From contig JAWOCD010000022.1 of the NCBI GenBank assembly GCA_046483985.1, forward strand, positions 16-64,015: DNA of 64,000 nucleotides. Reading direction: 5' to 3'. The notes beneath the pieces are model-generated. The model was not told the DNA's origin. It ran no database searches and saw only the letters and a program-made list of their open reading frames with translations. Position 1 is the stretch's first letter. Each line of letters starts with the position of its first letter. Below, piece by piece: positions 15,057-34,529 of this stretch. Made by a program: the position numbers and the translations under genes. The stretch is from Promethearchaeia archaeon. GTDB lineage: Archaea > Asgardarchaeota > Lokiarchaeia > Sigyniarchaeales > SOKP01.

Positions 15057-17555
15057 TTAAATATTATGTGACTCCCGCGCAATTATCTCATCTTGCAATT
15101 CCTTCCCTATACTATTGAAATAGGCATTATAACCTGTAACTCGTACAAGAAGGTTTGGATAGTCCTTAGGATGCTTTTGGGCATCTTTAAGCATATCCAC
15201 ATCAAGCATATTAATTTGTAATGAGGTACCTCCGTTTTCAATATATCCTCGAAGGTATGCCTTAAATTTTTCTCGATGTTCCGGGTCGCGGATAATTGAT
15301 GGATTAAAGGTGATTGTGTGACTGGCTCCGTTGGGAAGATAATTGATGTATTCTCCATCCTCATTTTTACCGCCTAAAGCCCTTCCCACAGAGTTAGTGA
15401 CCGCAGTTGGACCCTTTTTGTCCGCTCCGGTATTAGGACATATGGCGTTTGACATAAAAGTTCCTTCATTTCTTCCATCTGGAGTTGCCGCCGTGAATGA
15501 TGCATCAGCTCCTGCCCAATAATTCCAAGAAAGCATGCCGGGTCGATATTGGAACCCCGTCGGAGTTTTATACTTCCAAGTTTCGTCCGCCCACGTTTTC
15601 ATTACTTTTCTGGCTAACTCATCGGGTTCCTTATTATCATTTCCGTATTTTGGTGCTTTATTCTTTAGGAAGGTTTGCATGATTATATTTTCTTTTCCTT
15701 CAAAATCATCTCTTAAAGCTTGTTTGACCTCCTTAATGGTATATCTTTCTTCATCATACACGAAATGTTTAATTGCAAGTAATGAATCCACCGTTGTGGC
15801 AAAACCTACTCCTTCGACGGTGACAAAGGAAAGTTCTGCCCCTCCATTTCTCACGTCTTTTCCTTGTTCAATGCATCCCCGAACGAGGGTTGATAGATAT
15901 GGGGTTGGTAAAAAGGCTCCGCGTAATTCTTCTGTCTTATTATTTACCTCCACTAGGTATTTAATAATGAACCTAACTTGCTCTTGCCATGCATTCCATA
16001 AATCCTCCCAACTCTCAAAATCTTCTGGTCTTCCCGTTTCAGGACCAATTTGTTCTCCATCTTTTGTGGCTTCATTATTGCCTGGCATATTCTTCCCGTT
16101 CCATAAGGTTAATTCTATACTTTTGGCAAGGTTCGGATTGCAATTAACTGTTCCGGATCTGTCGTTTCCTTGCATTGTATTTTCTAAGCACCCCACACAG
16201 GCGTAATCCCATGCATCCTCTTCTGGAATTCCCTCTCTTACCATACCAGCAATACTTCGCTCGTCAAAATTCAAGAGAAAGGGAGATCCTTGAGATCGGG
16301 AGATCATATCGATAATAATGTCTAATAGTTTATCTGGCGAATTTCTATTGAGTCGAATATTCGGTTTTGGCTCCAAAATTGGTGACCATTCATCAATTAC
16401 TTCTAAGATCGTGTAAGTTAATTCATTTGTTAGGTCTTCTCCATTTGGTCCACAGCCCGATAAGGTCATCAGTTGACCGAACGCGCTGGTGATCCCTTGT
16501 TTCCCTAACTTAATTTGAGCATCGTAGGCGGTATTACAATGAAACCAAAAGCTCCCCAAGATATCTTTGGCAAAATCTTTGGTGATGTTTCTTTCTTCAA
16601 TTACGTCCCTTTTATAAAGTTCCCATAAATATTGATCTGTTCTGCCAAATGAGGTTCCTGGGCCAGGATAGGATTCCTCGGCCATAATTAACATATGCGT
16701 TAACCATAGGGCTTGAACTCCTTGCCAAAATGTTTTCGCCGGTTCCCACGGTACTTTTTCTAAATTGATTGCCATTTGCTCTAGTTCTTCTTTTCTTTCT
16801 GGAGATTCCGTTTCTGAGATTAAGCGTCTGCATTCATCCGCATACTTTTTTGCCAATTTCCGTGGAATTTCCGTGGCTTTAATCATTGCTCTTAATTCTT
16901 CTCCCTTGGGTCCGTTTTTTTCTTTTTTTGATAGTTGTTCGTAGGACTTTTTGGCTTTTATGTGTAAATATTTAAATCCTTTCTTGATAATCGTATCATG
17001 ATCGGGAATAATGTGGCCTGCCGTTGCTCCCGTATTGCCGAATCCGGAACGATGAAATTTAAAAAGTGCATGTCTACATTCCAAATTTTTCTCCCAATAT
17101 TCCTCTGCCTCCGTTTTGGTGAGACATTTACTCAACTGGGTATTGAATCGTCCTCCCGCAATGAGATCATTTTCTGAAATGATTTCTTGGGGGATATAAT
17201 TTAATATGCCCTCCTCAAAGAAAGTTATCCGCCTTTCTGGCAACGATAGTTCCCAAAAATTATCCGGCAGCTCAACTTTTTGAGCCATCGAACGTATAGA
17301 GGCTACAAATGGTCCATATTCGTCCTCTCCGATATAGTAATATACCTCTGGAGCTACATAATAATCCCCTTCGTGCCAGATGACATCCCAATCAGTTCCT
17401 GTAGTTAAGGGGGTAAACTCATTTGCCCACTCTCTATCTGCTCCCTTAAAATAGTATTCCCGGAGCCATTGTTGTCTGGGGGAGAGATCATGCGATTCGG
17501 CAATTTGAAACTGCCGTTCGCGGGATAATTTAGATTTATTTTTACTCTTACTCAT
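15057..17555 (-). CDS. Glycyl radical enzyme, PFL2/dehydratase-like clade, divergent
   Basis: The C-terminal glycine-radical loop LLVRVTGYNAYF has Gly808 (nt 15117-15143). The thiyl loop DYACVGCLE has Cys456 and Glu458 (nt 16182-16199). The length is 832 aa. Confidence 0.9.
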   Translation of the reverse strand: MSKSKNKSKLSRERQFQIAESHDLSPRQQWLREYYFKGADREWANEFTPLTTGTDWDVIWHEGDYYVAPEVYYYIGEDEYGPFVASIRSMAQKVELPDNFWELSLPERRITFFEEGILNYIPQEIISENDLIAGGRFNTQLSKCLTKTEAEEYWEKNLECRHALFKFHRSGFGNTGATAGHIIPDHDTIIKKGFKYLHIKAKKSYEQLSKKEKNGPKGEELRAMIKATEIPRKLAKKYADECRRLISETESPERKEELEQMAINLEKVPWEPAKTFWQGVQALWLTHMLIMAEESYPGPGTSFGRTDQYLWELYKRDVIEERNITKDFAKDILGSFWFHCNTAYDAQIKLGKQGITSAFGQLMTLSGCGPNGEDLTNELTYTILEVIDEWSPILEPKPNIRLNRNSPDKLLDIIIDMISRSQGSPFLLNFDERSIAGMVREGIPEEDAWDYACVGCLENTMQGNDRSGTVNCNPNLAKSIELTLWNGKNMPGNNEATKDGEQIGPETGRPEDFESWEDLWNAWQEQVRFIIKYLVEVNNKTEELRGAFLPTPYLSTLVRGCIEQGKDVRNGGAELSFVTVEGVGFATTVDSLLAIKHFVYDEERYTIKEVKQALRDDFEGKENIIMQTFLKNKAPKYGNDNKEPDELARKVMKTWADETWKYKTPTGFQYRPGMLSWNYWAGADASFTAATPDGRNEGTFMSNAICPNTGADKKGPTAVTNSVGRALGGKNEDGEYINYLPNGASHTITFNPSIIRDPEHREKFKAYLRGYIENGGTSLQINMLDVDMLKDAQKHPKDYPNLLVRVTGYNAYFNSIGKELQDEIIARESHNI

Positions 17556-17907: not shown

Positions 17908-18999
17908 ATGAAAAATGTATTAGGGGTCGATCCGGGTACGAAATCTTGGGACTTTTTTGGGTTATCTGATAAAGATGTTGTTGTCGATACATCAATTCCC
18001 TCCAAAGAGTTAATGGAAAAGCCGCAGAAAGCAATTATGATTATTGAATCGATGGAAGATATAGATTTAATGGTGGCACCAAGCGGATTTGGGCTGCCGC
18101 TTAAAAAAGTCCAAGGTCTTGATAAAGATGATATATTTTTCACGCTGTTAAAATTTAAGAAAAAAGCAAAGGATCAATTACTCGGGCTGGGAGATGTCTT
18201 ACGTTTAATTAAGAAAGCGGATATTCCAGGTATAATGGTTCCTGGTGTAAAGCATCTATCCACGGTCCCTACCTATAGGAAGATAAATAAAGTAGATATG
18301 GGCACTGCCGATAAACTTTGTACCAGTGTGGTGGGAATTAAACATCAAATGGAACGATTTCATATTCTCCCGGAAAAAACGAATTTTATTATGGTTGAAA
18401 TAGGACACGGATTTACCGCAGTATTAGCCGTTGAAAATGGTCAAATTATCGATGGAATCGGCGGATCTAATATAATGGGATTCAGAGCATGTGGCAGTTT
18501 AGATGGCGAATTAGCATATTTAATTAAAAATATTAGGAAGAAAAATATTTACCGTGGGGGAGTGTCGTATATCTCTGGTTATCCGGATTTGAGTATTAAG
18601 GAAATTACATTCCTTGCTGAAAAGGATGAACATGTGAGAAATGCCTTAAAAGCTTATGTAGATGATGTTACAAAAGCAGTCTATGCGATATCATCTTCTT
18701 ATCTCGAAACCCATGAGAATATGGAGATTTTATTGGCTGGGAGGGGCGCGAAGATCGATTATTTACGTAATATGCTAGTAAACTCGATAGAATCGATCGC
18801 ACCGGTAAAGTTAATGGGAAATTATAGTCAAATCGCGAAGCGAGCAGCTCAAGGAGCTGCCTTTATCGCAAATGGCCTTTTAGACGGCGAATATGAGCCA
18901 ATAATCGATAATCTAAAGCTCAAAGAAGCTTCGGGGTCGATCCTTGACGATATTTATATCCCCCTCGATAATAAAGAACTCAAACCATATTTGCCCTAA
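17908..18999 (+). CDS. ASKHA-fold (acetate/sugar-kinase-like) protein resembling the archaeal DUF1464 family
   Basis: The N-terminal VLGVDPGTKSWDFFGL has a phosphate-1-like DxGT motif. The size is about 360 aa. The family assignment is from memory. Confidence 0.5.
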   Translation: MKNVLGVDPGTKSWDFFGLSDKDVVVDTSIPSKELMEKPQKAIMIIESMEDIDLMVAPSGFGLPLKKVQGLDKDDIFFTLLKFKKKAKDQLLGLGDVLRLIKKADIPGIMVPGVKHLSTVPTYRKINKVDMGTADKLCTSVVGIKHQMERFHILPEKTNFIMVEIGHGFTAVLAVENGQIIDGIGGSNIMGFRACGSLDGELAYLIKNIRKKNIYRGGVSYISGYPDLSIKEITFLAEKDEHVRNALKAYVDDVTKAVYAISSSYLETHENMEILLAGRGAKIDYLRNMLVNSIESIAPVKLMGNYSQIAKRAAQGAAFIANGLLDGEYEPIIDNLKLKEASGSILDDIYIPLDNKELKPYLP

Positions 19000-19055
19000 T
19001 TCATACTGTATTATCTAAAGAAGAAGATTATTATTTATCTACTGAGGAGAAAATT

Positions 19056-20636
19056 ATGAACATAGTTATCATTACCGGTGAGCAAAGCTATTCCATTCTT
19101 GAGGAGATAGTTAAAAATCTCCAGGAGCACCAATTCTCCATTGAAGTGGCTCCTGTTTCCATCTCTGCGTTTATAACAAAACAAATGGTTCGTTCTCTAC
19201 TTTCTTCTTTGCAAATCTCTTCGGTTGATTTAGTCCTACTTCCGGGTTTTATTCAATGGGATACTGTTTCTTTAGAAGGACAATTCAACGTTAAAATCAG
19301 AAAAGGCCCAGAATTTGCTTCAGATCTCCCGGTCATTATTGAACAGCTTGAAGATATCGAATTATCAACGACTATTCCTGCAAATAAGTTACTGCAAGTC
19401 TCTGGTGAAAAAGAATATAAAAACTTGGTGCAAAGAAAGCTCAAAACTGCAAAAGAACATATCTGCCATCACACTTTTTATGTGAAAAAAAGCCGCTCGG
19501 ATTTAATGATTGGTAAATATTTACCGCCCCCCATTATTGCTGAGATAGTTAATTGTACAGAAAAAACAGATGCGAAAATTATTAGGAAAGTTGCCCATTA
19601 TTCTAAGACGGGAGCGGATATTATTGATATTGGATGCGTATCAAATAAACCTAACCCGCAACGAGTTAGGGAGATTATAAGATTAATTCGAGATAAATTT
19701 AACATTTTGATTAGTATCGATTCAATGGATTCTAATGAAATTTCTGCTGCAGTCCATGAAGAGATTGATTTGATTTTAAGCCTTGATCTCAGTAATTATC
19801 GGACCTTCTTAGATATTCCCAAAGATATTCCAATTGTATTACTCCCCACGAAAATTAAGGAAGGGTTTTTCCCCCAAGACGCTGAGACACGAGTAAATAA
19901 TCTACTTGAATTAACGGAGATTATGCAGCAGCACGGCTTTAAAAAATTAATTGCAGATCCCTTATTAGAGACGCCCATAGCTCCCGGTATGTGCAATTCA
20001 CTAAAAGCATACTTTTTGTACCAAGAAAAGGTCAGTCAAAAGAAAAATTTACCTTTGGAGCTGCCGCTCTTTTTCGGAATCTCAAATGTGGTGGAACTTA
20101 TGGATGTGGATTCCATAGGGATAAACGGTTTACTAGCGAGTATTGCGACCGAATTAGAGATAGGAATAGTTTTTACCGTCGAGCATAGCGCAAAACTCAT
20201 GTACGGGGTGGCTGAGTTAAAACAGGCACTTATGCTTAATTATTTGGCTAAGGGGAAAAAAACGCCGCCAATCAATCAAGGGATCTCCGCATTTAAAGCG
20301 AAAGGAAAGACACGCGAAAAAATCCCCAACGAAGTTCGAAATAACCTCGAGGAGAACGTTATCCAAGCCGAAGAACAGAAAGAATATAAGCCCGATAAGA
20401 ATGGCTATTTTCGAATATATATTGAACATTATTCCGGGAAGATTTTCGTGTTATTTTATGATAACGCTGATAATTTTCTTCATTCTTTTCAAGGTAACAC
20501 CGCTGAAGATCTCAGTAAAAAGATCATAGAAATGAATTTAACTCAAAATATACAACATCTGAATTATCTTGGACGAGAATTGGCAAAAGCTGAATATTGT
20601 CTGAAGTCTGGGAAACCTTATTTACAAGACCAGTAA
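19056..20636 (+). CDS. Dihydropteroate-synthase-like pterin-binding protein (MJ0107-like architecture)
   Basis: The central GADIIDIGC is a pterin-binding TIM-barrel motif. The ~525-aa three-part architecture with N- and C-terminal extra domains resembles the methanogen DHPS-like proteins. Confidence 0.65.
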   Translation: MNIVIITGEQSYSILEEIVKNLQEHQFSIEVAPVSISAFITKQMVRSLLSSLQISSVDLVLLPGFIQWDTVSLEGQFNVKIRKGPEFASDLPVIIEQLEDIELSTTIPANKLLQVSGEKEYKNLVQRKLKTAKEHICHHTFYVKKSRSDLMIGKYLPPPIIAEIVNCTEKTDAKIIRKVAHYSKTGADIIDIGCVSNKPNPQRVREIIRLIRDKFNILISIDSMDSNEISAAVHEEIDLILSLDLSNYRTFLDIPKDIPIVLLPTKIKEGFFPQDAETRVNNLLELTEIMQQHGFKKLIADPLLETPIAPGMCNSLKAYFLYQEKVSQKKNLPLELPLFFGISNVVELMDVDSIGINGLLASIATELEIGIVFTVEHSAKLMYGVAELKQALMLNYLAKGKKTPPINQGISAFKAKGKTREKIPNEVRNNLEENVIQAEEQKEYKPDKNGYFRIYIEHYSGKIFVLFYDNADNFLHSFQGNTAEDLSKKIIEMNLTQNIQHLNYLGRELAKAEYCLKSGKPYLQDQ

Positions 20637-20680: not shown

Positions 20681-21667
20681 TTAAGTATGGAGCCTATACA
20701 AAAGATTAAACTGATTTACATTTTTGCTTAACCCATGATGTTTAACAATATATACATCTTCTATTTCATTTTTTTCCACCACTTCAGCGAGTTTGTTTCC
20801 GGCAATATCCAAGAATTTTAACTTGGGCATTCTTTTTAGATAGTCGATATTTTTTTTTTCTTTAAGTTTATTGTTTGCCAAATACAGATGGGTTATTGAA
20901 CCGATTGTTGATAATGTTCTTATATTGGTCAAGTGATTATTGTTAAGATTTAATTCTTTTACATACGTTAATCTTTTGATTTCTGGAATTTCTGATAAAT
21001 TTTTAATTCGCTCAGCATATTTTTGCCTCCACACATTGACATTCCATCCGATTTCCGATAAATCAAGCTTTGTAATAACCCCTTGCTCCCATTCAAAGAA
21101 AACCGTATAAAATCTTTCGGTTAACCTTTTAATGGTTAAATAATTGATGAGAATCTCTGCTAGCCGTTCAATAGGAAAATCTTGGTATTCCTTTCCCTGA
21201 AATAAGGTGGTAATATTTTTTCTAAATTCTTTATTTGAGTAGTTCCGATGCTTATCCAGATATTTTCGCTCTATTATTTCTTGGATTCGGTTCCAAATGA
21301 TAGTCTGTGCTTTATGGGTATTAATTTCTATTAAGGTTTCGATAATTTCAATTAAACATTCATAATCTGACTCGTGAGTGATGGCCCATGCCATCGGAAT
21401 TAATGCTCTCTCGAGGAATCTTCTTCTAATGATATGAGCTGCTAAAGTTCTAACCTTACTATTAGCATCTGTAACTAATAAATTCTCTAGGAGTTTGAAG
21501 AAGAAATCTTGGTTTTCTTGAAGATTGTTCAAATAGATGATGCTCTTCTTTCGCGTTTGTGTATTTTTGCTATTTTCAATTAGCGATAATAATAACTGAA
21601 TCGCTGTTTCCCTTGTAATTCTTTTATGATCAAGATCTTCTAATATTTCAGCAAGCTTAGAGTCCAT
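20681..21667 (-). CDS. HEAT-repeat plus leucine-rich-repeat (LRR) protein
   Basis: The N-terminus has HEAT-like helices (DANSKVRTLAAHIIRRRF). The C-terminus has LRRs (VKELNLNNNHLTNIRTLSTIGSITHLYLANNKLKE...LKFLDIAGNKL). Confidence 0.6.
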   Translation of the reverse strand: MDSKLAEILEDLDHKRITRETAIQLLLSLIENSKNTQTRKKSIIYLNNLQENQDFFFKLLENLLVTDANSKVRTLAAHIIRRRFLERALIPMAWAITHESDYECLIEIIETLIEINTHKAQTIIWNRIQEIIERKYLDKHRNYSNKEFRKNITTLFQGKEYQDFPIERLAEILINYLTIKRLTERFYTVFFEWEQGVITKLDLSEIGWNVNVWRQKYAERIKNLSEIPEIKRLTYVKELNLNNNHLTNIRTLSTIGSITHLYLANNKLKEKKNIDYLKRMPKLKFLDIAGNKLAEVVEKNEIEDVYIVKHHGLSKNVNQFNLLYRLHT

Positions 21668-21773
21668 ATTACTAATGTTAATAGTATTTTCTATAGATTT
21701 AAACCTTTAGAGTTTAGTGTTTGCATTATTTAACAGGATATATAACCCTGGTGGGTATAGAGTTCCATTTCCG

Positions 21774-21888
21774 ATTTAACGATCTGCGAAAGAAGTCCCC
21801 ATCCCTTTACAGCCCTAAGATATGCCCACCAGCTAACGCTTAGTGGACTCGTAGGAATCCCCGTCCTTTAGGGCGGGGAGACTTCAAT
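21774..21888 (+). mobile_element. Second miniature IS200/IS605 derivative (rearranged left hairpin, longer right-end segment)
   Basis: The first 36 nt are identical to the first 36 nt of both the 8155 and 63421 copies (atttaacgatctgcgaaagaagtccccatcccttta). The last 32 nt (aatccccgtcctttagggcggggagacttcaat) are identical to 8230-8261. The 3' arm of the left hairpin is replaced by unrelated sequence. Confidence 0.8.
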
Positions 21889-23017
21889 AATGCTGGATTG
21901 TATTATATACAGTGTCCCTCTGAATGGGTTTTTTTCCTGCCGCCTTGATGATTTTAATGATCTCTTCGGGCAAAATAAACTCTCCATAGTCTGCTCCCGC
22001 GCTTTTTGAGATATTTTCTTCCATCAATGTTCCGGAAAAATCGTTTACGCCATAATTCAAAGAGACTTGAGCAAATTTTGGCCCCAATTTAACCCACGAA
22101 CATTGAATATTGTCAATATAATCTTTTAAAAATATTCTAGCCACCGCAAACAATTTTAAATCTGCCATACCATAACAGGGTTTCAGCGGGTATTTTTTTA
22201 TCCGCGCGAGTTTCGGGTTTTTTTTCACAAACGGTAAGGGAACAAATTCTGTAATACCCTTTGTTTCTTTCTGCACCTCACGTAATACACTTAAATGTTC
22301 TATCCGGTCTTCCAAACTCTCAATATGTCCATACATCATTGTAGAAGTGGTTGGAATGTCTAATTGGTGGGCAATAGTGATGATCTCTTTCCAATGTTCC
22401 ACATTAATTTTATTCGGACACATAATTCTTCTTATTTCATCAACTAAAATCTCTGCCGCGGTCCCGGGCATTGAACCCAGACCATTCTTCTTTAGCTCCT
22501 TTAAAGTATTTTTAATACTCAATCCGGTTATTTCTGCCATATGGAAAATTTCTTGAGGGGAAAAAGCATGAATGTGTATCTCAGAATCCACCTCTTTAAC
22601 GGTTTTGAGGATATCGATATAAAATTGAAAATCTACTTCAGCATTTATGCCTCCTTGGATGCAAACCTCCGTACATCCTTTACTTTTAGCTTCTTTCACT
22701 TTATTTTTGATTTCTTCGAGAGACAAAAGAAAAGCTTCCTCGTGATTGGGGGGGACACTGAAAGAACAAAAAAGACATCCTTGCTGGCAAATATTGGTAA
22801 AGTTTATATTACGATTTATAACAAAAGAAACCATGTTCTTGGTTTTTTCAACACAAATTCTATTTGCGACTCGTTGTAGGCCAATAAATTCTTTCCCCGT
22901 AACTTTAAGTAATTCAACAGCTTCTTCCTTCTTTAATTGGTGACCATCTAAGACCCTGCTAAGAATATTGTTGATATCCGCTTTAATTTCGTGTTTAAAA
23001 AAGTCGAAACTTCCCAT
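21884..23017 (-). CDS. cofH: FO (7,8-didemethyl-8-hydroxy-5-deazariboflavin) synthase subunit CofH (radical SAM)
   Basis: VSFVINRNINFTNICQQGCLFCSF is a CofH/MqnC-type CxxxCxxC block. It lies immediately downstream of a CofG-type gene. Confidence 0.72.
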   Translation of the reverse strand: MGSFDFFKHEIKADINNILSRVLDGHQLKKEEAVELLKVTGKEFIGLQRVANRICVEKTKNMVSFVINRNINFTNICQQGCLFCSFSVPPNHEEAFLLSLEEIKNKVKEAKSKGCTEVCIQGGINAEVDFQFYIDILKTVKEVDSEIHIHAFSPQEIFHMAEITGLSIKNTLKELKKNGLGSMPGTAAEILVDEIRRIMCPNKINVEHWKEIITIAHQLDIPTTSTMMYGHIESLEDRIEHLSVLREVQKETKGITEFVPLPFVKKNPKLARIKKYPLKPCYGMADLKLFAVARIFLKDYIDNIQCSWVKLGPKFAQVSLNYGVNDFSGTLMEENISKSAGADYGEFILPEEIIKIIKAAGKKPIQRDTVYNTIQHY

Positions 23018-23027
23018 ATACTTTCAA

Positions 23028-24128
23028 TTATCTTAAATTATTTATCACATTTAAAATCATATCGGAACAAAAGCCTTCTTCTTGAATATATTTTTCATAA
23101 ATGGGAAGCCTTTCCTTCAGAGTAAATCCGTTTTGAGAACAAATCCTTTTTAAAGTATTAATTTTGGGCCATGGTTTTTTGGGGTTAATTTGATCTGCTG
23201 TAAACGGGGAAATACCTCCGAAATCATCGATTCCCATCTTTAAAAACTTCTCGGCATGGTTTTCGATAAGATTGGGGGGGACTTGTACTGGAATTTCATT
23301 ACCAAAAATTAGTTTCGCAATTCCTACGGTTTTTAATATTTCTTGGATGCTTATCGGTTCGGGGGGGTGAAATGCAATTCCTGGTTTCTCGATGAAGTTC
23401 TGAATTATCACTTCCTGGATATGTCCAAATTCTTCATGAATTTCCTTTATTATAAGAAGATCTTTTATCCGATCTGAGAGGTTCTCGCCAATTCCAAGTA
23501 AAAGCCCTGTAGTGAAGGGGATTTTGAGTTTTCCCGCATTTCGTAAGTGTTTAATTCGTTTTTCTGGGGTTTTTTTCGGAGATTTTTCATGAACTTCTCC
23601 TTTTTCAAATAACTTCATGCTGGTACTTTCAAGCATTAACCCCATACTTGCATTAAACTTTTTCAGATCTTCTAACTCTCGGTAAGAAAGATATCCAATA
23701 TTCGTATGGGGGAGAATGTTAAAATCCAACAAATAGGAGGAAACATCTTTTACAAATTCAATAAAGTCAGCACACCCTCTTTTTTCCAACTCGGACTGGA
23801 CTTCCTTGTAATGATTTGGCCTTTCTCCGGAAATTAATAAACCCTCTTTACAATTGTGTTCCAATCCCTTTTGAATGAGCGAGGTCATTTTTTCGTTTTC
23901 GATTAAGACCACATTTCCTTCTCCCTTTAGTTTGGGGACTTTATAGTTGTAAAAGCAATATCCGCATTGATTTTGACAATAGTTGGATAATGAAAGGGTA
24001 AAATTTCGGGAGTAGGTAATGACATTTCTTTTTTCCTTCGGCAATCGGCCTTTGATTTCGTGAACTCGTTCCCGAATGGTTCTCAAGGATAATGCTTTTA
24101 GCTCTTTTATCCTTTGTTCCTTATTCAT
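23028..24128 (-). CDS. cofG: FO synthase subunit CofG (radical SAM)
   Basis: ITYSRNFTLSLSNYCQNQCGYCFY is a CofG-type cluster motif. It is adjacent to CofH. Confidence 0.72.
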   Translation of the reverse strand: MNKEQRIKELKALSLRTIRERVHEIKGRLPKEKRNVITYSRNFTLSLSNYCQNQCGYCFYNYKVPKLKGEGNVVLIENEKMTSLIQKGLEHNCKEGLLISGERPNHYKEVQSELEKRGCADFIEFVKDVSSYLLDFNILPHTNIGYLSYRELEDLKKFNASMGLMLESTSMKLFEKGEVHEKSPKKTPEKRIKHLRNAGKLKIPFTTGLLLGIGENLSDRIKDLLIIKEIHEEFGHIQEVIIQNFIEKPGIAFHPPEPISIQEILKTVGIAKLIFGNEIPVQVPPNLIENHAEKFLKMGIDDFGGISPFTADQINPKKPWPKINTLKRICSQNGFTLKERLPIYEKYIQEEGFCSDMILNVINNLR

Positions 24129-24801
24129 TTGACTTATCCCTCCGTGTATAATATAACGTTACATACCCATCCCGATGAGCGACATCTTTTACTTTGTATC
24201 GAGGGCAATCTCTCATCTCCCCAAAACCGAACCCTTCCACTAAACTTGTAGCATCTTCTCCCCCAACCATCCAAGGCGCGATAGTCACACGTATCTCATC
24301 TATCAAGTCATTTTTTACAAAACTCCAATTTAGTGTGCCTCCTCCCTCCAAAAGGATTGATTTAATGCCCTTTTTATACAATTCTGGCATAAGACTAGGG
24401 AGTGCAACCCTCTTACCCTTTCCTGCTTTAATAATTGTGATTTCTTTTTCTTGGAAATTACGTTCCTTATGGGGTGTAATATTTTCTGTGGTGCAGATAA
24501 TAGTTGGATATAAATCTTGTTGATATGTGACCACCTTTGCTTCCAAGGGAATAGAAAGATTACTATCTAATATAATTCTGTAATAACCAGAATGCTCGTA
24601 GTATTTAATATGCAGTTTCGGGTCGTCTTTCAAGATTGTTCCTTTGCCTACCATGATGGCATCTACATTCGTTCTTAATTTATGAACCTCCCGCCAATCT
24701 TGTTCATCCGATAACTCGGGATCGCCCGTTCTAGAAGCGATTTTCCCATCTATCGTCATTGCGGCACTTAATATTATATATGGATTTTTATCCTCTTTCA
24801 A
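24121..24801 (-). CDS. 2,5-diamino-6-ribosylamino-4(3H)-pyrimidinone 5'-phosphate reductase (RibD C-terminal domain type, archaeal ArfC/Rib7-like)
   Basis: MTIDGKIASRTGDPELSDEQDWREVHKLRTNVDAIMVGKGTILKDDPKL and LLEGGGTLNWSF are RibD_C/DHFR-like motifs. It overlaps cofG by 8 nt. Confidence 0.8.
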   Translation of the reverse strand: MKEDKNPYIILSAAMTIDGKIASRTGDPELSDEQDWREVHKLRTNVDAIMVGKGTILKDDPKLHIKYYEHSGYYRIILDSNLSIPLEAKVVTYQQDLYPTIICTTENITPHKERNFQEKEITIIKAGKGKRVALPSLMPELYKKGIKSILLEGGGTLNWSFVKNDLIDEIRVTIAPWMVGGEDATSLVEGFGFGEMRDCPRYKVKDVAHRDGYVTLYYTRRDKSNE

Positions 24802-25951
24802 ATACTAATTCACCATGGATATATACTTTTTTTATGTTTTCTGCTGTTGTCCTTTGGACTATTATGGAATAAATATTTTTTTTATTGAGTTGATAAACAA
24901 AATAATTGGGATCGTTTAAATTTACCAAGAAAAAATTTCCCTTCTTTCCGTTTTCGATATATCCTTGCTTTTTATTCAATTTAAAATTTTCTGCGGCATT
25001 TATCGTTACCATTTTCAATAAATCTTTCGCAGTTAGGGATTTTATATCAGTTCCTTTTGTTAATGCCCTAGAGATCAAATATAAATAACGCATTTCCTCA
25101 AATAAATCTGGAGATACCGCCATGATATTATCTGTGCCCAAAGATATTTGTACTTTCCTTTTTTGAATCTCTATTATAGGGGGAAATCCCATTTGAAAAT
25201 AACTATTACTTCGAGGACACAACACTAAACTTTTGTTTTTCTTTTTTATTCTCTCCAGATCCTTACCTTGGAATTGAGTTCCATGTACAATGACATCCAC
25301 GAGGTCATCGGCAAATAGTTCATTAATTAATTTTTTCCTACGTTCTTTTTCTGCACAGTGGACAGCAATGATCTTCTTCAATTCTGTGTGATATTTTCTC
25401 AATTCTTTTTTATCCTTCTGGGAAATGTGCCGGTAACTGACTAACCCGATCCCGTCCGCTTCTCTGAAGACAGATTGAATTTGCTCAGTCTTCTGAAATC
25501 GCCCTAAAATGACCGTCTTTATTTGAAAATCACGTTTAGCAGTCTTTAATACCTCTATCCCGTCCATTTCCCGCTCTCTAAAATCAACAAAACAAGTTAT
25601 TCCCCTTGAAATCATATCTTCGATTGCGTTTTGGATTCCTTGCTCTTTAAGTTGGTTAGAAGTTGCTTCAAGGAGTTTATGTTTGATGCCTCCTGGTGGG
25701 GCAACCACAGAGTCAAGATCTCTGTTGAATCCCGCCTCTTTAGCGAAACTATCCCCAATATGAACATGGGAATTAATAAGGCCGGGAATAAGCAAAAAAT
25801 TGTTTTCATGGTCTGAAAGGATTAATTTTTTATTACACTGCTCATAATAGAGATTTTGTATTATCCCGTCAGAGTTGACATTGAATTCAATATTCTTTTT
25901 TAGGGATAACTGTTCTCCAATGAGTCCATACTTGTATGAAAATCTCGGCAT
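24788..25951 (-). CDS. Amidohydrolase-superfamily deaminase (COG0402-like, the guanine/cytosine/MTA-SAH deaminase branch)
   Basis: Metal ligands appear in the expected order: GLINSHVHIGDS (HxH), AVHCAEKE (H-x-x-E), IVHGTQF (H) and LGTDN (D). It overlaps the reductase gene by 14 nt. Confidence 0.7.
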   Translation of the reverse strand: MPRFSYKYGLIGEQLSLKKNIEFNVNSDGIIQNLYYEQCNKKLILSDHENNFLLIPGLINSHVHIGDSFAKEAGFNRDLDSVVAPPGGIKHKLLEATSNQLKEQGIQNAIEDMISRGITCFVDFREREMDGIEVLKTAKRDFQIKTVILGRFQKTEQIQSVFREADGIGLVSYRHISQKDKKELRKYHTELKKIIAVHCAEKERRKKLINELFADDLVDVIVHGTQFQGKDLERIKKKNKSLVLCPRSNSYFQMGFPPIIEIQKRKVQISLGTDNIMAVSPDLFEEMRYLYLISRALTKGTDIKSLTAKDLLKMVTINAAENFKLNKKQGYIENGKKGNFFLVNLNDPNYFVYQLNKKNIYSIIVQRTTAENIKKVYIHGELVFERG

Positions 25952-26267
25952 TGCTTATCAAATCATATATTACAATACTGTGTAAATATATTAATTTTTT
26001 AGTAAATTTTTAGAAAGGGTAATATAGGGGTCACTTTACTCATATGAGGCGGGTTTTCCCAATTCTTTTTATTGCTCATATACGATATGTAATTCTTTTT
26101 ATCAATTCTGTATTTTGAAAAAGAATCATAACTTATTATTTATTTTTCAGATTAAATTGTAAAATACTTATTTTATCATTGTTTTTACTACGTGATTTAA
26201 GCTAATCGGTGATTGAATTATTCATAAATTCAAAAAAGATCTTCAAAACTCTGAATCGACCATCGAT

Positions 26268-27194
26268 ATGGGAATCGATAAGGTCGGGATTGTAGGAGTT
26301 GAGAAAAAAGTAGAAATTGTACAAGAGAATAAGAGATATTCTTTTTATCCGGAGATCTCAGCGCTAATTTCCCTGCCGGCACAACAAAGGGGAATTCATA
26401 TGAGCAGGACCTCCGAGACAATCGAGGAGATTATTAATGAGGTCGTTTTTAAACCGACTCCTACCATTGAAGTTGTGGGAGATCGTATAGTTCGACGCCT
26501 ACTGGAACGCCATCCATATACTTCCAGAGTAGAGGTCAAATTGGAAGGTAAACTTATAATTCAAGTAAGAGAAACCGAAAAGCGGAACATTCAAAAAGCC
26601 TATGATGTCAGTTCTTGCGTCCATGCAAAAAGAAAAAAATCGGGGGAGATTGATTACAATTACTATATTGCAGCAAAGGCTAAAGGGATGACGTGTTGTC
26701 CTTGTGCTTTGGGTATGTCTAAAGAATTCGCGGAAGAAGTCATTAATACCAGAAAAGATATTGATATTTCAGAAGATCAGTTGGCAAAGATTTTGAAATT
26801 AATGCCTCTTTCTTCTCACAACCAGAGGGCTATCGGTACAATCAAACTGCAGATCAAGGATTTGGATGTCCACAAAATTGATGTCTTGGATATAATTGAA
26901 ATAATCGAGGATAGTATGTCCGGGAAGATCCAGTCTGTTTTAAAGCGCCCAGAAGAGGCGGAGCTTGTACGTTCTGCCCATCTGAAACCTCTATTTGCCG
27001 AAGATGCAATACGAGAAATGGGAAAAAACTTTATCCTTCGCGATTTTCCCAATCTGGAAGATTCTTTTCATGTGACTTTTAAAATAGAGAGCCTCGAATC
27101 CATCCACCCTCATAACGTTTATGCTGAATTAAATACCACGATTGGAGAACTTAAGCAAGCTATATTAAATAAGGCTAACTCTCTAAATGATTAA
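26268..27194 (+). CDS. mptA: GTP cyclohydrolase MptA/FolE2 family (type IB/IV)
   Basis: QRGIHMSR, MTCCPCALGMSKEF and SSHNQRAIG are the FolE2/MptA signature blocks. The conserved N-terminal DLQN block lies upstream of the first ATG, so the true start is probably near 26217 (see findings). Confidence 0.78.
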   Translation: MGIDKVGIVGVEKKVEIVQENKRYSFYPEISALISLPAQQRGIHMSRTSETIEEIINEVVFKPTPTIEVVGDRIVRRLLERHPYTSRVEVKLEGKLIIQVRETEKRNIQKAYDVSSCVHAKRKKSGEIDYNYYIAAKAKGMTCCPCALGMSKEFAEEVINTRKDIDISEDQLAKILKLMPLSSHNQRAIGTIKLQIKDLDVHKIDVLDIIEIIEDSMSGKIQSVLKRPEEAELVRSAHLKPLFAEDAIREMGKNFILRDFPNLEDSFHVTFKIESLESIHPHNVYAELNTTIGELKQAILNKANSLND

Positions 27195-27200
27195 CTCAAA

Positions 27201-28241
27201 ATGAAAGAGATCAAGGGAATAGAAGGAGATTACCTTCAAACAAAAGAAACTAATCTTTTTTTCGACATCAAGGGATTAGTACATCCTGAAGAAAGAAAAA
27301 TCTGTTTTATCCGATTTTATCAAGATCCGGACGGAGATCGGGTAAGAAAAGGGAAAAAATATACAAAGATTTACAAGTTAGCCGAGCGTTATGAGTTTTT
27401 AAAGGAAAAGTATCCCCAATATCTCTTTTATTCGGATCAACGGGACCTCTTGCTTCAAGGAGTCCCAAAAGAGGAGATAAAGAAGATTTACACGCCCAGG
27501 GATTATTTTAATCGTTTGCAAGATAAACACTCCTTGTCAAGAATGGAAAAATGTTCTCTTCAACTATGCCACTTCTTAATTGAGAATAGTCACCTTCCCG
27601 AAGATGCGATTGGCATCACCGGCTCCCCTATGGTAAGCTTAAGTAAGGAGAAGTCTGACATCGATTTAATCATTTATGGAACCGAAGTTGGTCGGAATTT
27701 TCAAGATAGTATGGCAGACATTTTAAGAGCTGGAGATTTTTGCAGAAAATATAATATGCGTGAGTATCAATCGCATTATCGATGGAGGGCTGGTGGTTCT
27801 GGGATCCCGTTTGATAAATTCCTTAAGAGTGAAAAACGGAAACTCCATCAAGGAATGTATAAAGGATTTGAATTTTTTATTCGCTATATAAAAAGTCCAG
27901 AAGACTGGCCAAGTTCTTATTATGATTACCAATATAAAGATATGGGGAGAATTAAGATAAATGCCAAGGTCATTGAAGATAAGGATTCGATATTTACCCC
28001 ATGTACGTATAAAGTTGATAATGTTCAAATCTTAGAAGATAAAAACCTAAATGATGCAATAGATGATAAATTGGTTGATCAAGTTAAATCCTACCGAGGT
28101 CGTTTCTGTGAACAAGCCAAGAAAGGGGAAAATGTACTAATTGAAGGAAAACTGGAGAAGGTTATGGAGAAGAAGAAGGATTTTTATTACCAGATTCTAC
28201 TTCAAGACCAGACAAGAGATAAAATGCTCATTTTAAACTAA
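27201..28241 (+). CDS. Predicted Pol-beta-superfamily nucleotidyltransferase with a C-terminal OB-fold-like region
   Basis: IGITGSPMVSLSKEKSDIDLIIYG is a G-S...D-x-D minimal NTase motif. The C-terminus (KKGENVLIEGKLEKV) is OB-like. It starts 6 nt after mptA ends. Confidence 0.45.
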   Translation: MKEIKGIEGDYLQTKETNLFFDIKGLVHPEERKICFIRFYQDPDGDRVRKGKKYTKIYKLAERYEFLKEKYPQYLFYSDQRDLLLQGVPKEEIKKIYTPRDYFNRLQDKHSLSRMEKCSLQLCHFLIENSHLPEDAIGITGSPMVSLSKEKSDIDLIIYGTEVGRNFQDSMADILRAGDFCRKYNMREYQSHYRWRAGGSGIPFDKFLKSEKRKLHQGMYKGFEFFIRYIKSPEDWPSSYYDYQYKDMGRIKINAKVIEDKDSIFTPCTYKVDNVQILEDKNLNDAIDDKLVDQVKSYRGRFCEQAKKGENVLIEGKLEKVMEKKKDFYYQILLQDQTRDKMLILN

Positions 28242-28378
28242 AATATGGTTTCTTGGAACCTTTCCGCTCTATATATAATATTTAGACCGTATGTTCAAAT
28301 TGGAGAAATCTTTAAATATTTTAAAGCCTTAATAATTCCGAAATTAAACTTTTTATTGAATTGAATTTTTAAGAGTAT

Positions 28379-29692
28379 ATGGATACTTATAACGCAGATT
28401 TGCATATTCACAGCCCGCATTCCATTGCTGTTTCCCAATCGTTAAATTTGGACACGATGCTGAAAACTGCAAAGATTAAGGGGTTGCATCTTATCGGGAC
28501 TGGAGATATTCTGCAACCCGATTGGTTTCAATATATGAAGAAAAATCTTACAAAACATGATGATGGAAGTTTTTCCTATAAGGAAATTAATTTTCTTCTG
28601 CAAACCGAGATAGAAGACAAGGAAAGTATTCACCATGTTGTCTTTTTTCCCGATTTTGATACTGTGAAGGAGATCCAGACCCAGTTAGAACCGCATTCCA
28701 AGAATATTTTAAATGAGTGGGGGGGACGACCCCGGGTTAATTTATCTCCTCCGGAACTGGTAGACATCGTTACAGATTCCAATGCGATTATCGGACCCGC
28801 CCATGCTTTCACACCTTACCGGGCTATTTTCCGCCAAGGTAAATTCAATTCTTTAGAAGATTGTTATCAAGATGCCACCAGTAAGGTGGATTTTCTTGAA
28901 TTAGGTTTATCGGCCAATACAGAATTAGCAGATAGGATGGAATGTCTCAAAGATGTCTCCTTTTTGAGTAATAGTGATGCGCATTCCCAAAAACCCACCT
29001 CATTGGGACGAGAATTTAATAAATTTGCTTTAGAGACTCCGTCTTTTGAAGAAATACGTCTCGCTCTTCGTCGAAAGGATGACAGGAAAGTAACATTAAA
29101 CGTGGGATTACACCCCAAGCTGGGAAAATACTACAATATGTTCTGCGGAAAATGTAGACGCCGCGTCTTATTTAAAAAAATGAAAAAAAAGAACAAAAAC
29201 CCCTTTACCAGTTATTCCATTACCGAAAATTTTATTATTTATCAGGTAGATAATCCAGCAGAACGTCGCAAAAAATATATTAATAAGGTTTCCAAAAAAA
29301 ACGTCACGTGTCCAGCGTGTAAACAGAAAACTGGAAAAAATTATAAAATGAAGCTGGGGGTAAGCGAACGAATAGATGTGATTTCCTCCTATCCAGAACC
29401 CAAACATCCGACTCACCGACCGGAATATATAAACGCGGTTCCATTGTATGATATTTTAAGGGCGATAAAAGGCATTAAGAGCAAGAATAGCAAAACAGTG
29501 AACAGAGCATACGATAAAATAATTAAGCACCTGGGCAACGAATTTGATATCGTTTTAGATATACCCCTCGCAGAGGTTAAGGAATATAATGAGAAAATTG
29601 GGAAGATCATTGAAGCAATCAGAGAAGATGAAATCGAATACACTCCCGGTGGCGGCGGGACATACGGTGATATTAATCTTCCACAATTTTGA
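28379..29692 (+). CDS. Endonuclease Q-like PHP-domain nuclease with a Zn-ribbon insert
   Basis: The N-terminal ADLHIHSPHS...KGLHLIGTGDILQPDW is PHP metal-binding and closely resembles Pyrococcus EndoQ as I recall it. Cys pairs CGKCRRR and CPACKQK are present. The size is ~430 aa. Confidence 0.7.
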   Translation: MDTYNADLHIHSPHSIAVSQSLNLDTMLKTAKIKGLHLIGTGDILQPDWFQYMKKNLTKHDDGSFSYKEINFLLQTEIEDKESIHHVVFFPDFDTVKEIQTQLEPHSKNILNEWGGRPRVNLSPPELVDIVTDSNAIIGPAHAFTPYRAIFRQGKFNSLEDCYQDATSKVDFLELGLSANTELADRMECLKDVSFLSNSDAHSQKPTSLGREFNKFALETPSFEEIRLALRRKDDRKVTLNVGLHPKLGKYYNMFCGKCRRRVLFKKMKKKNKNPFTSYSITENFIIYQVDNPAERRKKYINKVSKKNVTCPACKQKTGKNYKMKLGVSERIDVISSYPEPKHPTHRPEYINAVPLYDILRAIKGIKSKNSKTVNRAYDKIIKHLGNEFDIVLDIPLAEVKEYNEKIGKIIEAIREDEIEYTPGGGGTYGDINLPQF

Positions 29693-32887: not shown

Positions 32888-32890
32888 GAT

Positions 32891-34084: not shown

Positions 34085-34156
34085 TATTTTATCACAAATT
34101 TTAATCTTTTTAATTTTTTTCTATGTTCTAATTTTGTAAATATATCGATTCCGGGG

Positions 34157-34519
34157 TTAAAACCATAATGTCCCGTCAGCTTCAAGTACTAAATCATTTA
34201 AGGTTGCTGCGCCGACAATCTTAACTCCTGGAATCAGATCAACTTTCTCCCAGCCCAACATTCTCTTAGAAGCCTCGCAAACTAAAATTTCAACTCCGAT
34301 ATCCAAAGCTTTATCGATCATTTTCTTAACAGAGGGAAAATCGCCTAATTTAATCTTTTCTGCGGTTCCAGGCTTTAGAATTTTTAAGCCCATTCCCAAA
34401 TAATAAACCGTAGCTTTGATATCCATTGCTTTAGCAGTTTGAGCCAACACTAAAGGAGAATACTGACGTGCTGGAGCCTCGCTTGTTTGTACATATAATA
34501 AATATTTGTTTTCCATCAT
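34157..34519 (-). CDS. DsrE/DsrF-like sulfur-relay family protein
   Basis: The 120-aa Rossmann-like protein shows the DsrE2-like pattern (LVLAQTAKAMDIKATVYYLGMG...LVCEAS). It is adjacent to a TusA gene. Confidence 0.6.
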   Translation of the reverse strand: MMENKYLLYVQTSEAPARQYSPLVLAQTAKAMDIKATVYYLGMGLKILKPGTAEKIKLGDFPSVKKMIDKALDIGVEILVCEASKRMLGWEKVDLIPGVKIVGAATLNDLVLEADGTLWF

Positions 34520-34529
34520 TTTCCACCTC

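What the first reader, a model, noticed from the sequence alone, without database searches (positions are those of the whole stretch)
21884..25951. A COG0402-type deaminase translationally coupled to the archaeal riboflavin-pathway reductase and CofG/CofH
Four minus-strand genes are arranged deaminase, RibD-C-type reductase, cofG, cofH, with a 14-nt overlap, an 8-nt overlap and a 10-nt gap. The reductase makes the precursor of 5-amino-6-ribitylamino-uracil, the pyrimidine substrate of FO synthase. The intervening step is deamination of the 2-amino group of 2,5-diamino-6-ribitylamino-pyrimidinone 5'-phosphate. In archaea reduction precedes deamination, and to my knowledge the deaminase gene has not been firmly identified there. 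The first gene has the full metal-ligand set of the guanine/cytosine-deaminase branch of amidohydrolases (HxH, H-x-x-E, H, D), and the chemistry is guanine-deaminase-like. It is therefore a candidate for the missing deaminase. The alternative is a 5'-deoxyadenosine/MTA deaminase (DadD-like) that clears the radical-SAM by-product of CofG/CofH.
Basis: inference. Interest (0 to 1): 0.7.

Follow-up and report, generated by a model that had tools for sequence, protein, structure and literature searches.

The report
Predicted archaeal riboflavin-pathway deaminase, Asgard copy
The first gene of this four-gene operon is an Asgard-archaeal copy of an amidohydrolase family (MJ0699 type) that others have already proposed, but never tested, as the missing pyrimidine deaminase of archaeal riboflavin and F420 synthesis; gene order and gene fusions found here strengthen that proposal.

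Summary
Four minus-strand genes sit exactly where stated: an amidohydrolase, ArfC, CofG and CofH, with a 14-nt overlap, an 8-nt overlap and a 10-nt gap.

The amidohydrolase is not DadD, MtaD or guanine deaminase. It belongs to NCBIfam PRK07213 ("chlorohydrolase"), the family of M. jannaschii MJ0699 (Q58110). MJ0699 and HVO_2483 are the published but untested candidate "PyrD", carried in SEED as "Pyrimidine deaminase archaeal predicted".

Evidence found here:
- The gene is directly followed by arfC in 63 of 80 loci, usually overlapping it. These span Asgard, Bathyarchaeia, Thermoproteota and Nitrososphaeria.
- In Nitrososphaeria it lies inside ribE-ribB-ribH-arfA-AH-arfC.
- One archaeal contig encodes an amidohydrolase-ArfC fusion followed by cofG-cofH.
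- Other contigs encode a creatininase (ArfB-type) plus amidohydrolase fusion.
- The M. maripaludis ortholog is, by my locus mapping, a gene reported as essential.
- The AlphaFold model (pLDDT 94.7) has the COG0402 deaminase fold. The metal and catalytic residues are invariant, and several conserved basic residues are specific to this family.

No biochemical proof exists. The Asgard link to FO synthase is a variation in context, not a new kind of system.

The parts
24788..25951 (-). Amidohydrolase of the PRK07213 / MJ0699 ('PyrD') family. Predicted 2,5-diamino-6-ribitylamino-4(3H)-pyrimidinone 5'-phosphate deaminase. Metal and catalytic residues: H62, H64, H198, E201, H223, D274.
   Evidence: NF005552: 271.9 bits, full length, cutoff 294; invariant residues; 32% identity, E 1e-47 to MJ0699/Q58110; AF2 pLDDT 94.7; COG0402 deaminase fold, TM 0.84-0.87.
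24121..24801 (-). arfC: archaeal 2,5-diamino-6-ribosylamino-4(3H)-pyrimidinone 5'-phosphate reductase (RibD_C type). TTG start lies inside the 3' end of the amidohydrolase gene.
   Evidence: RibD_C 8.6e-48; TIGR01508: 195.7 bits, cutoff 186.45. Same junction in related loci.
23028..24128 (-). cofG: FO synthase radical-SAM subunit. CxxxCxxC motif is CQNQCGYC.
   Evidence: NF004884: 389.6 bits, cutoff 209.
21884..23017 (-). cofH: 5-amino-6-(D-ribitylamino)uracil--L-tyrosine 4-hydroxyphenyl transferase. CxxxCxxC motif is CQQGCLFC.
   Evidence: CofH_C; NF005609: 469.5 bits, cutoff 426.
24788..24814 (-). Amidohydrolase/arfC junction. A 14-nt overlap (24788-24801) and an SD-like GGTGA (24814-24810) 8 nt before the arfC TTG start.
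   Evidence: Sequence. The junction overlaps in 60 of 63 related loci; the overlap is 14 nt in 29 of 63; a GGAGG-like motif sits upstream. Coupling is inferred.
24121..24143 (-). arfC/cofG junction. An 8-nt overlap (24121-24128) and an SD-like GGAGGG (24143-24138) 9 nt before the cofG ATG.
   Evidence: Sequence. Inferred.
25952..26267 (.). AT-rich 316-bp divergent intergenic region between the operon and mptA. Presumed promoter region. Holds the palindrome TTACA-N6-TGTAA at 25970-25985, 34 nt upstream of the amidohydrolase ATG.
   Evidence: 2 matches in the window against 0.08 expected. Not conserved in related Asgard loci. Function unknown.

Best explanation
The operon encodes a supply line for the pyrimidine substrate of FO synthase.
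1. ArfC reduces 2,5-diamino-6-ribosylamino-4(3H)-pyrimidinone 5'-phosphate to the ribityl form. This follows from the known function of the archaeal ArfC family.
2. The amidohydrolase (24788-25951), a mononuclear-metal COG0402-type deaminase of the MJ0699/PRK07213 family, hydrolytically removes the 2-amino group. The product is 5-amino-6-ribitylamino-2,4(1H,3H)-pyrimidinedione 5'-phosphate. This step is inferred.
3. An unidentified phosphatase dephosphorylates that product.
4. CofH and CofG condense it with tyrosine to make the F420 chromophore FO. This is the known function of those families.

On this reading the amidohydrolase is a non-homologous replacement for the CDA-fold deaminase (RibD-N in bacteria, Rib2 in fungi).

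The proposed chemistry is that of guanine, cytosine and isocytosine deaminases. The metal is held by H62, H64, H198 and D274 and activates water, with E201 and H223 shuttling protons.

The conserved basic residues K90, R151, R247 and R367 are specific to this family. They are proposed, without a test, to bind the 5'-phosphate and ribityl chain.

What is shown: the gene identities, the fold, the conserved residues, the synteny and the fusions. What is inferred: the substrate and the reaction.
For: 1. Family. The best model is NF005552/PRK07213, matched full length at 271.9 bits. The next best model scores 100.9 bits. All ten sampled relatives also hit PRK07213 best, and MJ0699 scores 589 bits on it.

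2. Link to the published candidate. MJ0699 = Q58110 is in this family. It is 32% identical to the window protein, E 1e-47. Its locus lies next to fibrillarin and Nop5 on L77117. Close Methanocaldococcus relatives carry the name 'Pyrimidine deaminase archaeal predicted'.

3. Synteny.
- 63 of 80 genome loci have arfC directly downstream.
- 60 have arfA directly upstream.
- 47-57 also carry ribH, ribB and ribE, or ribC.
- The lineages are Asgard (Loki-type and Heimdall), Bathyarchaeia, Thermoproteota, Nitrosocaldus, Nitrososphaerales and Nitrosopumilales.

4. Junctions. The amidohydrolase-arfC junction overlaps in 60 of 63 loci, with 14 nt the commonest overlap.

5. Fusions.
- P0152 (636 aa) is Amidohydro_1 plus RibD_C. 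Its C-terminal part passes TIGR01508 at 197 bits. It is followed by cofG and cofH on a 108-kb archaeal contig.
- P0267 is a creatininase domain plus the amidohydrolase, found on 3 contigs, and extends to a complete 580-aa ORF.
- Creatininase-family enzymes are the formamidases of this pathway (PMC9478397).

6. Active site and fold. HxH, HxxE, H and D are invariant. The AF2 model has pLDDT 94.7 and pTM 0.94. The nearest structures are COG0402 deaminases at 13-20% identity.

7. Essentiality. The M. maripaludis ortholog lies two genes upstream of the Fru operon. That maps it to MMP_RS07110, which a preprint reports as essential. The mapping is my inference.
Against: - No enzyme assay or genetic test of any family member was found in the searchable literature. 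Pfeiffer 2021 states that confirmation is still required.
- The window protein scores 271.9 bits, just under the curated PRK07213 cutoff of 294.
- In the Methanobacterium-type, Methanocellales, Methanosarcinales and Thermoplasmata loci, and in M. jannaschii and M. maripaludis, the gene is not next to riboflavin genes.
- A few bacterial members sit in unrelated contexts (L017).
- The 63 syntenic loci are dominated by one class, Nitrososphaeria, so the number of independent lineages is about six rather than 63.
- A CDA-fold deaminase elsewhere in this genome cannot be excluded from a 64-kb window.
- The roles proposed for the basic residues were not checked against model coordinates, which were not available.
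Confidence: 0.75

Rival explanations
1. It is a DadD/MtaD-like nucleoside deaminase that removes 5'-deoxyadenosine, the inhibitory by-product of the radical-SAM enzymes CofG and CofH.
For: It has the same COG0402 fold and ligand set. The nearest solved structures include MTA, SAH and adenosine deaminases. It sits in one operon with two radical-SAM genes. A preprint calls the M. maripaludis ortholog 'adenosine deaminase', from annotation only.
Against: - It scores 74.2 bits on the DadD model (cutoff 522) and 28.7 bits on the MtaD model (cutoff 779), against 271.9 bits on PRK07213.
- Motifs differ from the aligned MTA deaminases: HxHxGD instead of HGHSAM, CPRSN instead of CPESN, GTDN instead of GTDG, and GLKH where those enzymes have HIWPAE.
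- The conserved partner is arfC and the rib genes, also where cofG/cofH are absent.
- It is found fused to ArfC.
- By established knowledge, M. jannaschii has DadD (MJ1541) as a separate paralogue of MJ0699.
Confidence: 0.05
2. It acts in the same pathway at a different hydrolytic step. It could be a formamide hydrolase replacing ArfB, or a deaminase acting on the ribosyl form before reduction, or on the dephosphorylated form.
For: The riboflavin operons ribE-ribB-ribH-arfA-AH-arfC contain no creatininase-type arfB, so a second step is also unassigned there. The amidohydrolase superfamily includes enzymes that cleave formyl and formimino groups; HutF appears among the structural neighbours. 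Its position between arfA and arfC would fit the ArfB step.
Against: - M. jannaschii has both the characterised ArfB (MJ0116; established knowledge) and MJ0699.
- P0267 fuses a creatininase domain to this amidohydrolase. That fits two different steps better than one duplicated step.
- The HxxE plus His/Asp arrangement is that of the COG0402 deaminases.
- A different candidate (HVO_1235) has been proposed for ArfB in haloarchaea.
Confidence: 0.1
3. It is a pterin, guanine or isocytosine-type deaminase of pterin or purine metabolism, placed here because of the adjacent pterin genes (mptA, DHPS-like).
For: mptA is divergently adjacent in the window and in L001, L002 and L005. Guanine and isocytosine deaminases are structural neighbours.
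Against: It scores 74.1 bits on the guanine deaminase model (cutoff 375.4). The mptA adjacency is limited to Loki-type Asgard loci, whereas the arfC/rib linkage spans phyla. The fusions are with riboflavin enzymes, not pterin enzymes.
Confidence: 0.04

Closest known systems
MJ0699 / HVO_2483 family: 'PyrD', SEED role 'Pyrimidine deaminase archaeal predicted', NCBIfam NF005552 (PRK07213, 'chlorohydrolase')
   Same: Full-length homology: 32% identity and E 1e-47 to MJ0699. Same best HMM. Same invariant residues. Same clustering with riboflavin genes that motivated the published prediction (PMC5397151).
   Different: This is an Asgard copy whose score lies slightly under the curated cutoff (271.9 against 294). 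It is joined to arfC-cofG-cofH (deazaflavin synthesis) rather than to a rib operon. Public annotation calls it only 'amidohydrolase family protein'. The family's activity is still untested.
RibD N-terminal domain (bacteria) and Rib2 deaminase (fungi), CDA fold
   Same: The proposed reaction is the same as Rib2's: deamination of the 2-amino group of the ribityl diaminopyrimidine phosphate after reduction. The fusion P0152 (deaminase plus RibD_C reductase) mirrors the two-domain layout of RibD.
   Different: The fold is unrelated: an amidohydrolase (beta/alpha)8 barrel with HxH/H/D metal ligands, not a cytidine-deaminase fold with a Cys/His zinc site. No dCMP_cyt_deam domain was found.
DadD (MJ1541) and MtaD 5'-deoxyadenosine/MTA/SAH deaminases
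   Same: Same COG0402 superfamily fold and metal ligands. TM-scores to the solved adenosine, MTA and SAH deaminase structures are 0.82-0.86.
   Different: Far below the family cutoffs. Different residues follow the HxH motif and occupy the CPxSN and GTDx motifs. Different genomic partners.
Guanine deaminase and isocytosine deaminase (COG0402)
   Same: They deaminate a 2-amino-4-oxo-pyrimidine ring, the same chemical unit as the proposed substrate. The fold is shared.
   Different: Only 14-17% identity. Score of 74 bits against a cutoff of 375. The proposed substrate carries a ribityl 5'-phosphate. The family has its own conserved basic residues (K90, R151, R247, R367).

Membership tests
PRK07213 / MJ0699 'PyrD' family | Best, full-length match to NF005552 | tested here: met
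   residues 10-379 match profile positions 10-378 of 382, E 7.6e-81. The next model scores 100.9 bits.
PRK07213 / MJ0699 'PyrD' family | Score at or above the curated cutoff (294 bits) | tested here: not met
   271.9 bits. Other accepted-looking members also fall below it (P0188 292.5, P0211 265.3). The model appears centred on Methanococcales (MJ0699 scores 589).
PRK07213 / MJ0699 'PyrD' family | Family-invariant residues: H62, H64, D67, K90, DFRE 123-126, R151, H198, E201, H223, C245, N249, GTDN 272-275 | tested here: met
   (the alignment includes MJ0699, M. maripaludis, Acidianus, Nitrosopumilus and both fusion proteins).
PRK07213 / MJ0699 'PyrD' family | Clustering with riboflavin-pathway genes | tested here: met
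   Window: overlaps arfC. 63 of 80 loci have arfC downstream and 60 of 80 have arfA upstream.
PRK07213 / MJ0699 'PyrD' family | Deaminase activity on 2,5-diamino-6-ribitylamino-pyrimidinone 5'-phosphate | not testable with these tools
   No published assay was found. It needs biochemistry.
COG0402 mononuclear-metal deaminases (amidohydrolase superfamily) | HxH, HxxE, H and D ligand/catalytic set, and the (beta/alpha)8 barrel with its composite beta domain | tested here: met
   pLDDT 94.7; TM 0.84-0.87 to 3LNP, 4DZH, 4V1X, 4GBD.
DadD / MtaD | Score at or above the curated cutoffs of NF005557 (522) or NF012037 (779) | tested here: not met
   74.2 and 28.7 bits, covering the C-terminal half only.
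Guanine deaminase | Score at or above the TIGR02967 cutoff (375.4) | tested here: not met
   74.1 bits. The PDB guanine deaminase match covers residues 219-367 only.
RibD-N / Rib2 CDA-fold deaminase | Cytidine/deoxycytidylate deaminase zinc-binding domain | tested here: not met
   only Amidohydro_1 and Amidohydro_3. No such domain in any scanned window ORF.
ArfB / BrbF formamidase (creatininase family) | Creatininase (PF02633) domain | tested here: not met
   The creatininase domain occurs as a separate domain fused to a family member in P0267.

The most novel reading that the evidence does not exclude
The amidohydrolase and ArfC work as one physically coupled deaminase-reductase unit, a non-homologous analogue of bacterial RibD. 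The evidence is the fusion in some archaea and the conserved 14-nt overlapping junction elsewhere. In Asgard archaea this unit has been recruited into a dedicated operon for the deazaflavin FO. A direct assay would then close the last enzymatic gap, apart from the phosphatase, in archaeal riboflavin and F420 biosynthesis, and would define a new enzyme activity for the amidohydrolase superfamily.
Probability: 0.6. Interest if true: 0.55.

Novelty: new member of a known kind. Interest (0 to 1): 0.4.

Why it matters
The deaminase step is, as far as the accessible literature shows, the only enzymatic step between GTP and lumazine in archaeal riboflavin/F420 synthesis with no experimentally assigned gene. 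NCBI names the family only 'amidohydrolase family protein' or 'chlorohydrolase'. One preprint treats the M. maripaludis copy as an adenosine deaminase.

Confirming the activity would:
- complete the pathway;
- correct the annotation across this widespread archaeal family;
- document a case of two unrelated folds (amidohydrolase barrel and CDA fold) catalysing the same step;
- show that Loki-type Asgard archaea encode their own route to the F420 chromophore.

The idea itself is not new. What this analysis adds is independent support: two domain fusions, a conserved overlapping junction, Asgard operons and a fold model. It also gives a clear choice of experiment.

Tried and rejected
1. Regulatory site. 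I looked for an RbkR-type operator. The palindrome TTACA-N6-TGTAA lies 34 nt upstream of the operon, with a second copy upstream of nadA (2 found against 0.08 expected). It is absent upstream of the orthologous operons in L001-L005 and L035. The published Thaumarchaeota-type motif TTAC-N10-GTAA occurs upstream of only 2 of 68 rib/AH operons. I draw no regulatory conclusion.

2. Bacterial-type signals. The promoter and terminator scan of 21500-26400 found no more than chance. There are no tRNA genes and no Rfam matches in the window.

3. Genome scan. The first scan with the 68-sequence alignment failed because no stretch was conserved enough. It was repeated with 12 sequences.

4. A wrong guess. 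I took P0163 to be a Methanococcales member, but it is a Nitrososphaerales protein. The route to MJ0699 went through Methanotorris igneus P0184 instead.

5. Literature. Searches for an experimental characterisation found none (terms MJ0699, HVO_2483, arfD, chlorohydrolase plus riboflavin). Supplementary tables of PMC5397151 were not available.

6. Residue mapping. Placing the conserved basic residues on the model was not possible because model coordinates are not exposed.

7. Rivals. DadD, guanine deaminase, pterin deaminase and ArfB-analogue readings were considered and ranked low, as set out under rival explanations.

Full report
**Observation**

- 24788-25951, 387 aa;
- 24121-24801, 226 aa, TTG start;
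- 23028-24128, 366 aa;
- 21884-23017, 377 aa.

The junctions are a 14-nt overlap, an 8-nt overlap and a 10-nt gap.

Profile searches identify the genes:
- Gene 1 is an Amidohydro_1 protein.
- Gene 2 is the archaeal ArfC reductase (TIGR01508, 195.7 bits, cutoff 186.45).
- Gene 3 is CofG (389.6 bits, cutoff 209).
- Gene 4 is CofH (469.5 bits, cutoff 426).

The ligand set H62-x-H64, H198-x-x-E201, H223 and D274 is present and invariant in the family. SD-like motifs lie 8-9 nt before the internal starts of arfC and cofG (sequence). The window is a Promethearchaeia (Asgard) MAG contig. Its protein is annotated only as 'amidohydrolase family protein'.

**Which amidohydrolase**

The best model by far is NF005552/PRK07213, 'chlorohydrolase'. 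It matches full length at 271.9 bits against a cutoff of 294.

The models for the characterised enzymes match weakly and only over the C-terminal half:

| Model | Score (bits) | Cutoff (bits) |
|---|---|---|
| DadD | 74.2 | 522 |
| MtaD | 28.7 | 779 |
| Guanine deaminase | 74.1 | 375 |

An exhaustive search of 1.84 billion cluster representatives finds 133 clusters at E <= 1e-30. All ten sampled relatives hit PRK07213 best.

The family is spread widely across the archaea. Members carry these names or record titles:
- Asgard: Loki, Thor, Hel, Hod, Heimdall, Njord and Jord groups;
- Nitrososphaeria, Bathyarchaeia and Thermoproteota;
- Sulfolobales (Acidianus);
- Methanococcales, Methanobacteriales, Methanocellales and Methanosarcinales;
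- Methanolliviera, Methanohalarchaeum, Thermoplasmata and Altiarchaeales;
- a few bacteria.

**Prior art**

Rodionova et al. 2017 (PMC5397151) state that orthologues of the RibD deaminase domain are apparently missing in Archaea. [quoted passage not shown]

Pfeiffer et al. 2021 (PMC8305020) name the candidates HVO_2483 and MJ0699 (Q58110, 34% identical to each other). They say the assignment requires experimental confirmation.

I traced the family through Methanotorris igneus (P0184) to its Methanococcales relatives. Among them, P0570 is MJ0699 = Q58110 = AAB98692, named 'atrazine chlorohydrolase isolog' and 'Uncharacterized protein MJ0699'. Methanocaldococcus lauensis relatives in a neighbouring 90% cluster carry the name 'Pyrimidine deaminase archaeal predicted'.

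MJ0699 lies on L77117 next to fibrillarin and Nop5, as its locus number predicts. It scores 589 bits on PRK07213. It is 32% identical to the window protein over 380 residues, E 1e-47.

The window gene is therefore an Asgard member of an already proposed, still untested candidate family. Further searches found no experimental characterisation. A 2026 review of riboflavin enzymology, in the passages my term search returned, mentions archaea only in passing and names no archaeal deaminase.

**Comparative evidence obtained here**

A scan of one genome per GTDB species returned 80 loci. I clustered the neighbouring ORFs without prior labels and annotated the frequent clusters.

- The gene directly downstream is arfC in 63 loci.
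- The gene directly upstream is arfA (GTP cyclohydrolase IIa/III) in 60 loci.
- Most Nitrososphaeria loci read ribE-ribB-ribH-arfA-AH-arfC.
- Three loci (Nitrososphaerales L006, Thermoproteota L007, Bathyarchaeota L026) carry the archaeal ribC (full order in L006/L007: ribB-ribC-ribH-arfA-AH; arfC follows in L007/L026).
- Loki-type Asgard loci (L001-L005) and a Heimdall locus (L035) read AH-arfC-cofG(-cofH), like the window.
- One Bathyarchaeia locus (L022) reads AH-cofG-cofH.

The AH-arfC junction overlaps in 60 of 63 loci. The same 14-nt overlap occurs in 29 of them, in Asgard and Nitrososphaeria alike. A GGAGG-like motif, formed by the C-terminal Gly-Gly codons of the amidohydrolase, precedes the arfC start.

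The caveat is sampling. The loci are dominated by Nitrososphaeria, so the independent lineages number about six. In the methanogen and Thermoplasmata loci, and in M. jannaschii and M. maripaludis, the gene is not clustered with riboflavin genes.

**Fusions**

Two family members are fused to neighbouring pathway enzymes.

P0152 (636 aa) is Amidohydro_1 plus RibD_C. Its C-terminal part passes the archaeal reductase model at 197 bits. On a 108-kb archaeal contig it is followed by cofG and cofH, the same order as in the window.

P0267 is a creatininase-family domain plus the amidohydrolase. It occurs on three contigs, and the ORF extends to 580 aa with a complete creatininase domain. A creatininase-annotated enzyme (bacterial BrbF) deformylates the ArfA product, the reaction of archaeal ArfB (PMC9478397); ArfB's own creatininase-family membership is from established knowledge.

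A deaminase-reductase fusion reproduces the architecture of bacterial RibD with an unrelated deaminase domain.

**Structure**

AlphaFold2 on the family alignment gives pLDDT 94.7 and pTM 0.94.

The nearest solved structures are all COG0402 enzymes: MTA and adenosine deaminases, atrazine chlorohydrolase, guanine deaminase, isocytosine deaminase and HutF. TM-scores normalised to the query are about 0.75-0.87, at only 13-20% identity. No structure of this family has been solved.

Against the aligned MTA deaminases, the family replaces several motifs:

| MTA deaminases | This family |
|---|---|
| HGHSAM | HxHxGD |
| HIWPAE | GLKH (K90) |
| CPESN | CPRSN (R247) |
| GTDG | GTDN |

The family also has conserved R151 and R367. 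Four family-specific basic residues would suit a phosphorylated substrate. That is inference only.

**Essentiality**

The M. maripaludis ortholog (CAF30936) lies two genes upstream of the Fru F420-hydrogenase operon. A preprint gives Fru as MMP_RS07120-07135, and calls MMP_RS07110 an 'adenosine deaminase ... essential in M. maripaludis S2'.

By position these are the same gene. This mapping is my inference. An essential gene fits a role in flavin and F420 synthesis better than a salvage role.

**Conclusion**

The most likely function is deamination of 2,5-diamino-6-ribitylamino-4(3H)-pyrimidinone 5'-phosphate, the product of ArfC. In this Asgard operon the product, once dephosphorylated, feeds CofH and CofG.

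The DadD, pterin/guanine deaminase and ArfB-analogue readings are much less likely, for the reasons given under rival explanations.

New here are the Asgard operon form, the two fusions, the conserved overlapping junction and the fold model. The decisive experiment, an assay on the ribityl diaminopyrimidine phosphate, has not been done.

Noticed in passing
window 26268-29692 (+); also L002: Three genes run divergently from the operon: mptA (TIGR00294, 252.8 bits), an unannotated 346-aa ORF, and a TIGR00375-like PHP-type metallohydrolase (264.9 bits, cutoff 326.6). The same three genes lie on that side of the amidohydrolase operon in L002. A PHP phosphoesterase next to mptA could be a candidate for the cyclic phosphodiesterase step (MptB) or for the unassigned riboflavin-pathway phosphatase.
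   Followed up: no
window 17908-20636 (+): A DUF1464 protein and a dihydropteroate-synthase-like protein (TIGR00284, 290 bits) lie here. Together with mptA and the operon, the region from about 17.9 to 29.7 kb forms a pterin, flavin and deazaflavin cofactor gene island.
   Followed up: partly
window 25970-25985 and 50867-50882: The perfect palindrome TTACA-N6-TGTAA occurs twice, against 0.08 expected. One copy is 34 nt upstream of the amidohydrolase ATG, the other about 75 nt upstream of nadA. It is not conserved upstream of the orthologous Asgard operons, so its meaning is unknown.
   Followed up: yes
L081:6001-7911 (P0152); L082:5887-7629 and L083 (P0267): Natural fusion proteins. One is amidohydrolase plus ArfC reductase, followed by cofG-cofH. 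The other is a creatininase (ArfB-type) domain plus the amidohydrolase. The gene call for P0267 starts 38 codons too late; the ORF extends to 580 aa.
   Followed up: yes
L010-L080 (Nitrososphaeria loci), amidohydrolase/arfC junction: The arfC start is embedded in the last codons of the amidohydrolase gene with the same 14-nt overlap in 29 of 63 loci. A GGAGG motif, formed by the C-terminal Gly-Gly codons, lies upstream. The arfA/amidohydrolase junction also overlaps by 4-10 nt in 53 of 60 loci.
   Followed up: partly
L017 (Chloroflexia bacterium) and P0413 (named Methylomirabilota bacterium): The family has a few bacterial members. In L017 the neighbours are an ABC permease and a zinc alcohol dehydrogenase, not riboflavin genes. 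This could be a transfer with a changed role, or MAG contamination.
   Followed up: no
L084 / L085 (M. maripaludis): The M. maripaludis ortholog sits between a thymidylate-synthase-like gene and a beta-CASP RNase, two genes upstream of the Fru F420-reducing hydrogenase operon. A preprint labels this locus 'adenosine deaminase' and uses that label in a purine-nitrogen hypothesis, which may rest on a misannotation.
   Followed up: partly
window 32090-40681: A sulfur-mobilisation cluster: two IscU/NifU plus cysteine desulfurase pairs (32090-34084 and 37010-38662), a DsrE-like protein, a TtuA-like PP-loop thiouridine synthetase (35972-36964) and a ThiF-family E1-like protein (39782-40681).
   Followed up: no
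window 3723-4730, 9296-11775, 15057-17555: A glycyl-radical enzyme (PFL-like, 832 aa), a radical-SAM/ferredoxin activase-like gene and a pair of 2-hydroxyacyl-CoA dehydratase D-component genes, all in an Asgard genome.
   Followed up: no
window 20681-21667 (-): A HEAT-repeat plus leucine-rich-repeat protein lies immediately downstream of cofH, after a 216-nt gap. This is a eukaryote-like repeat architecture of the kind common in Asgard genomes.
   Followed up: no
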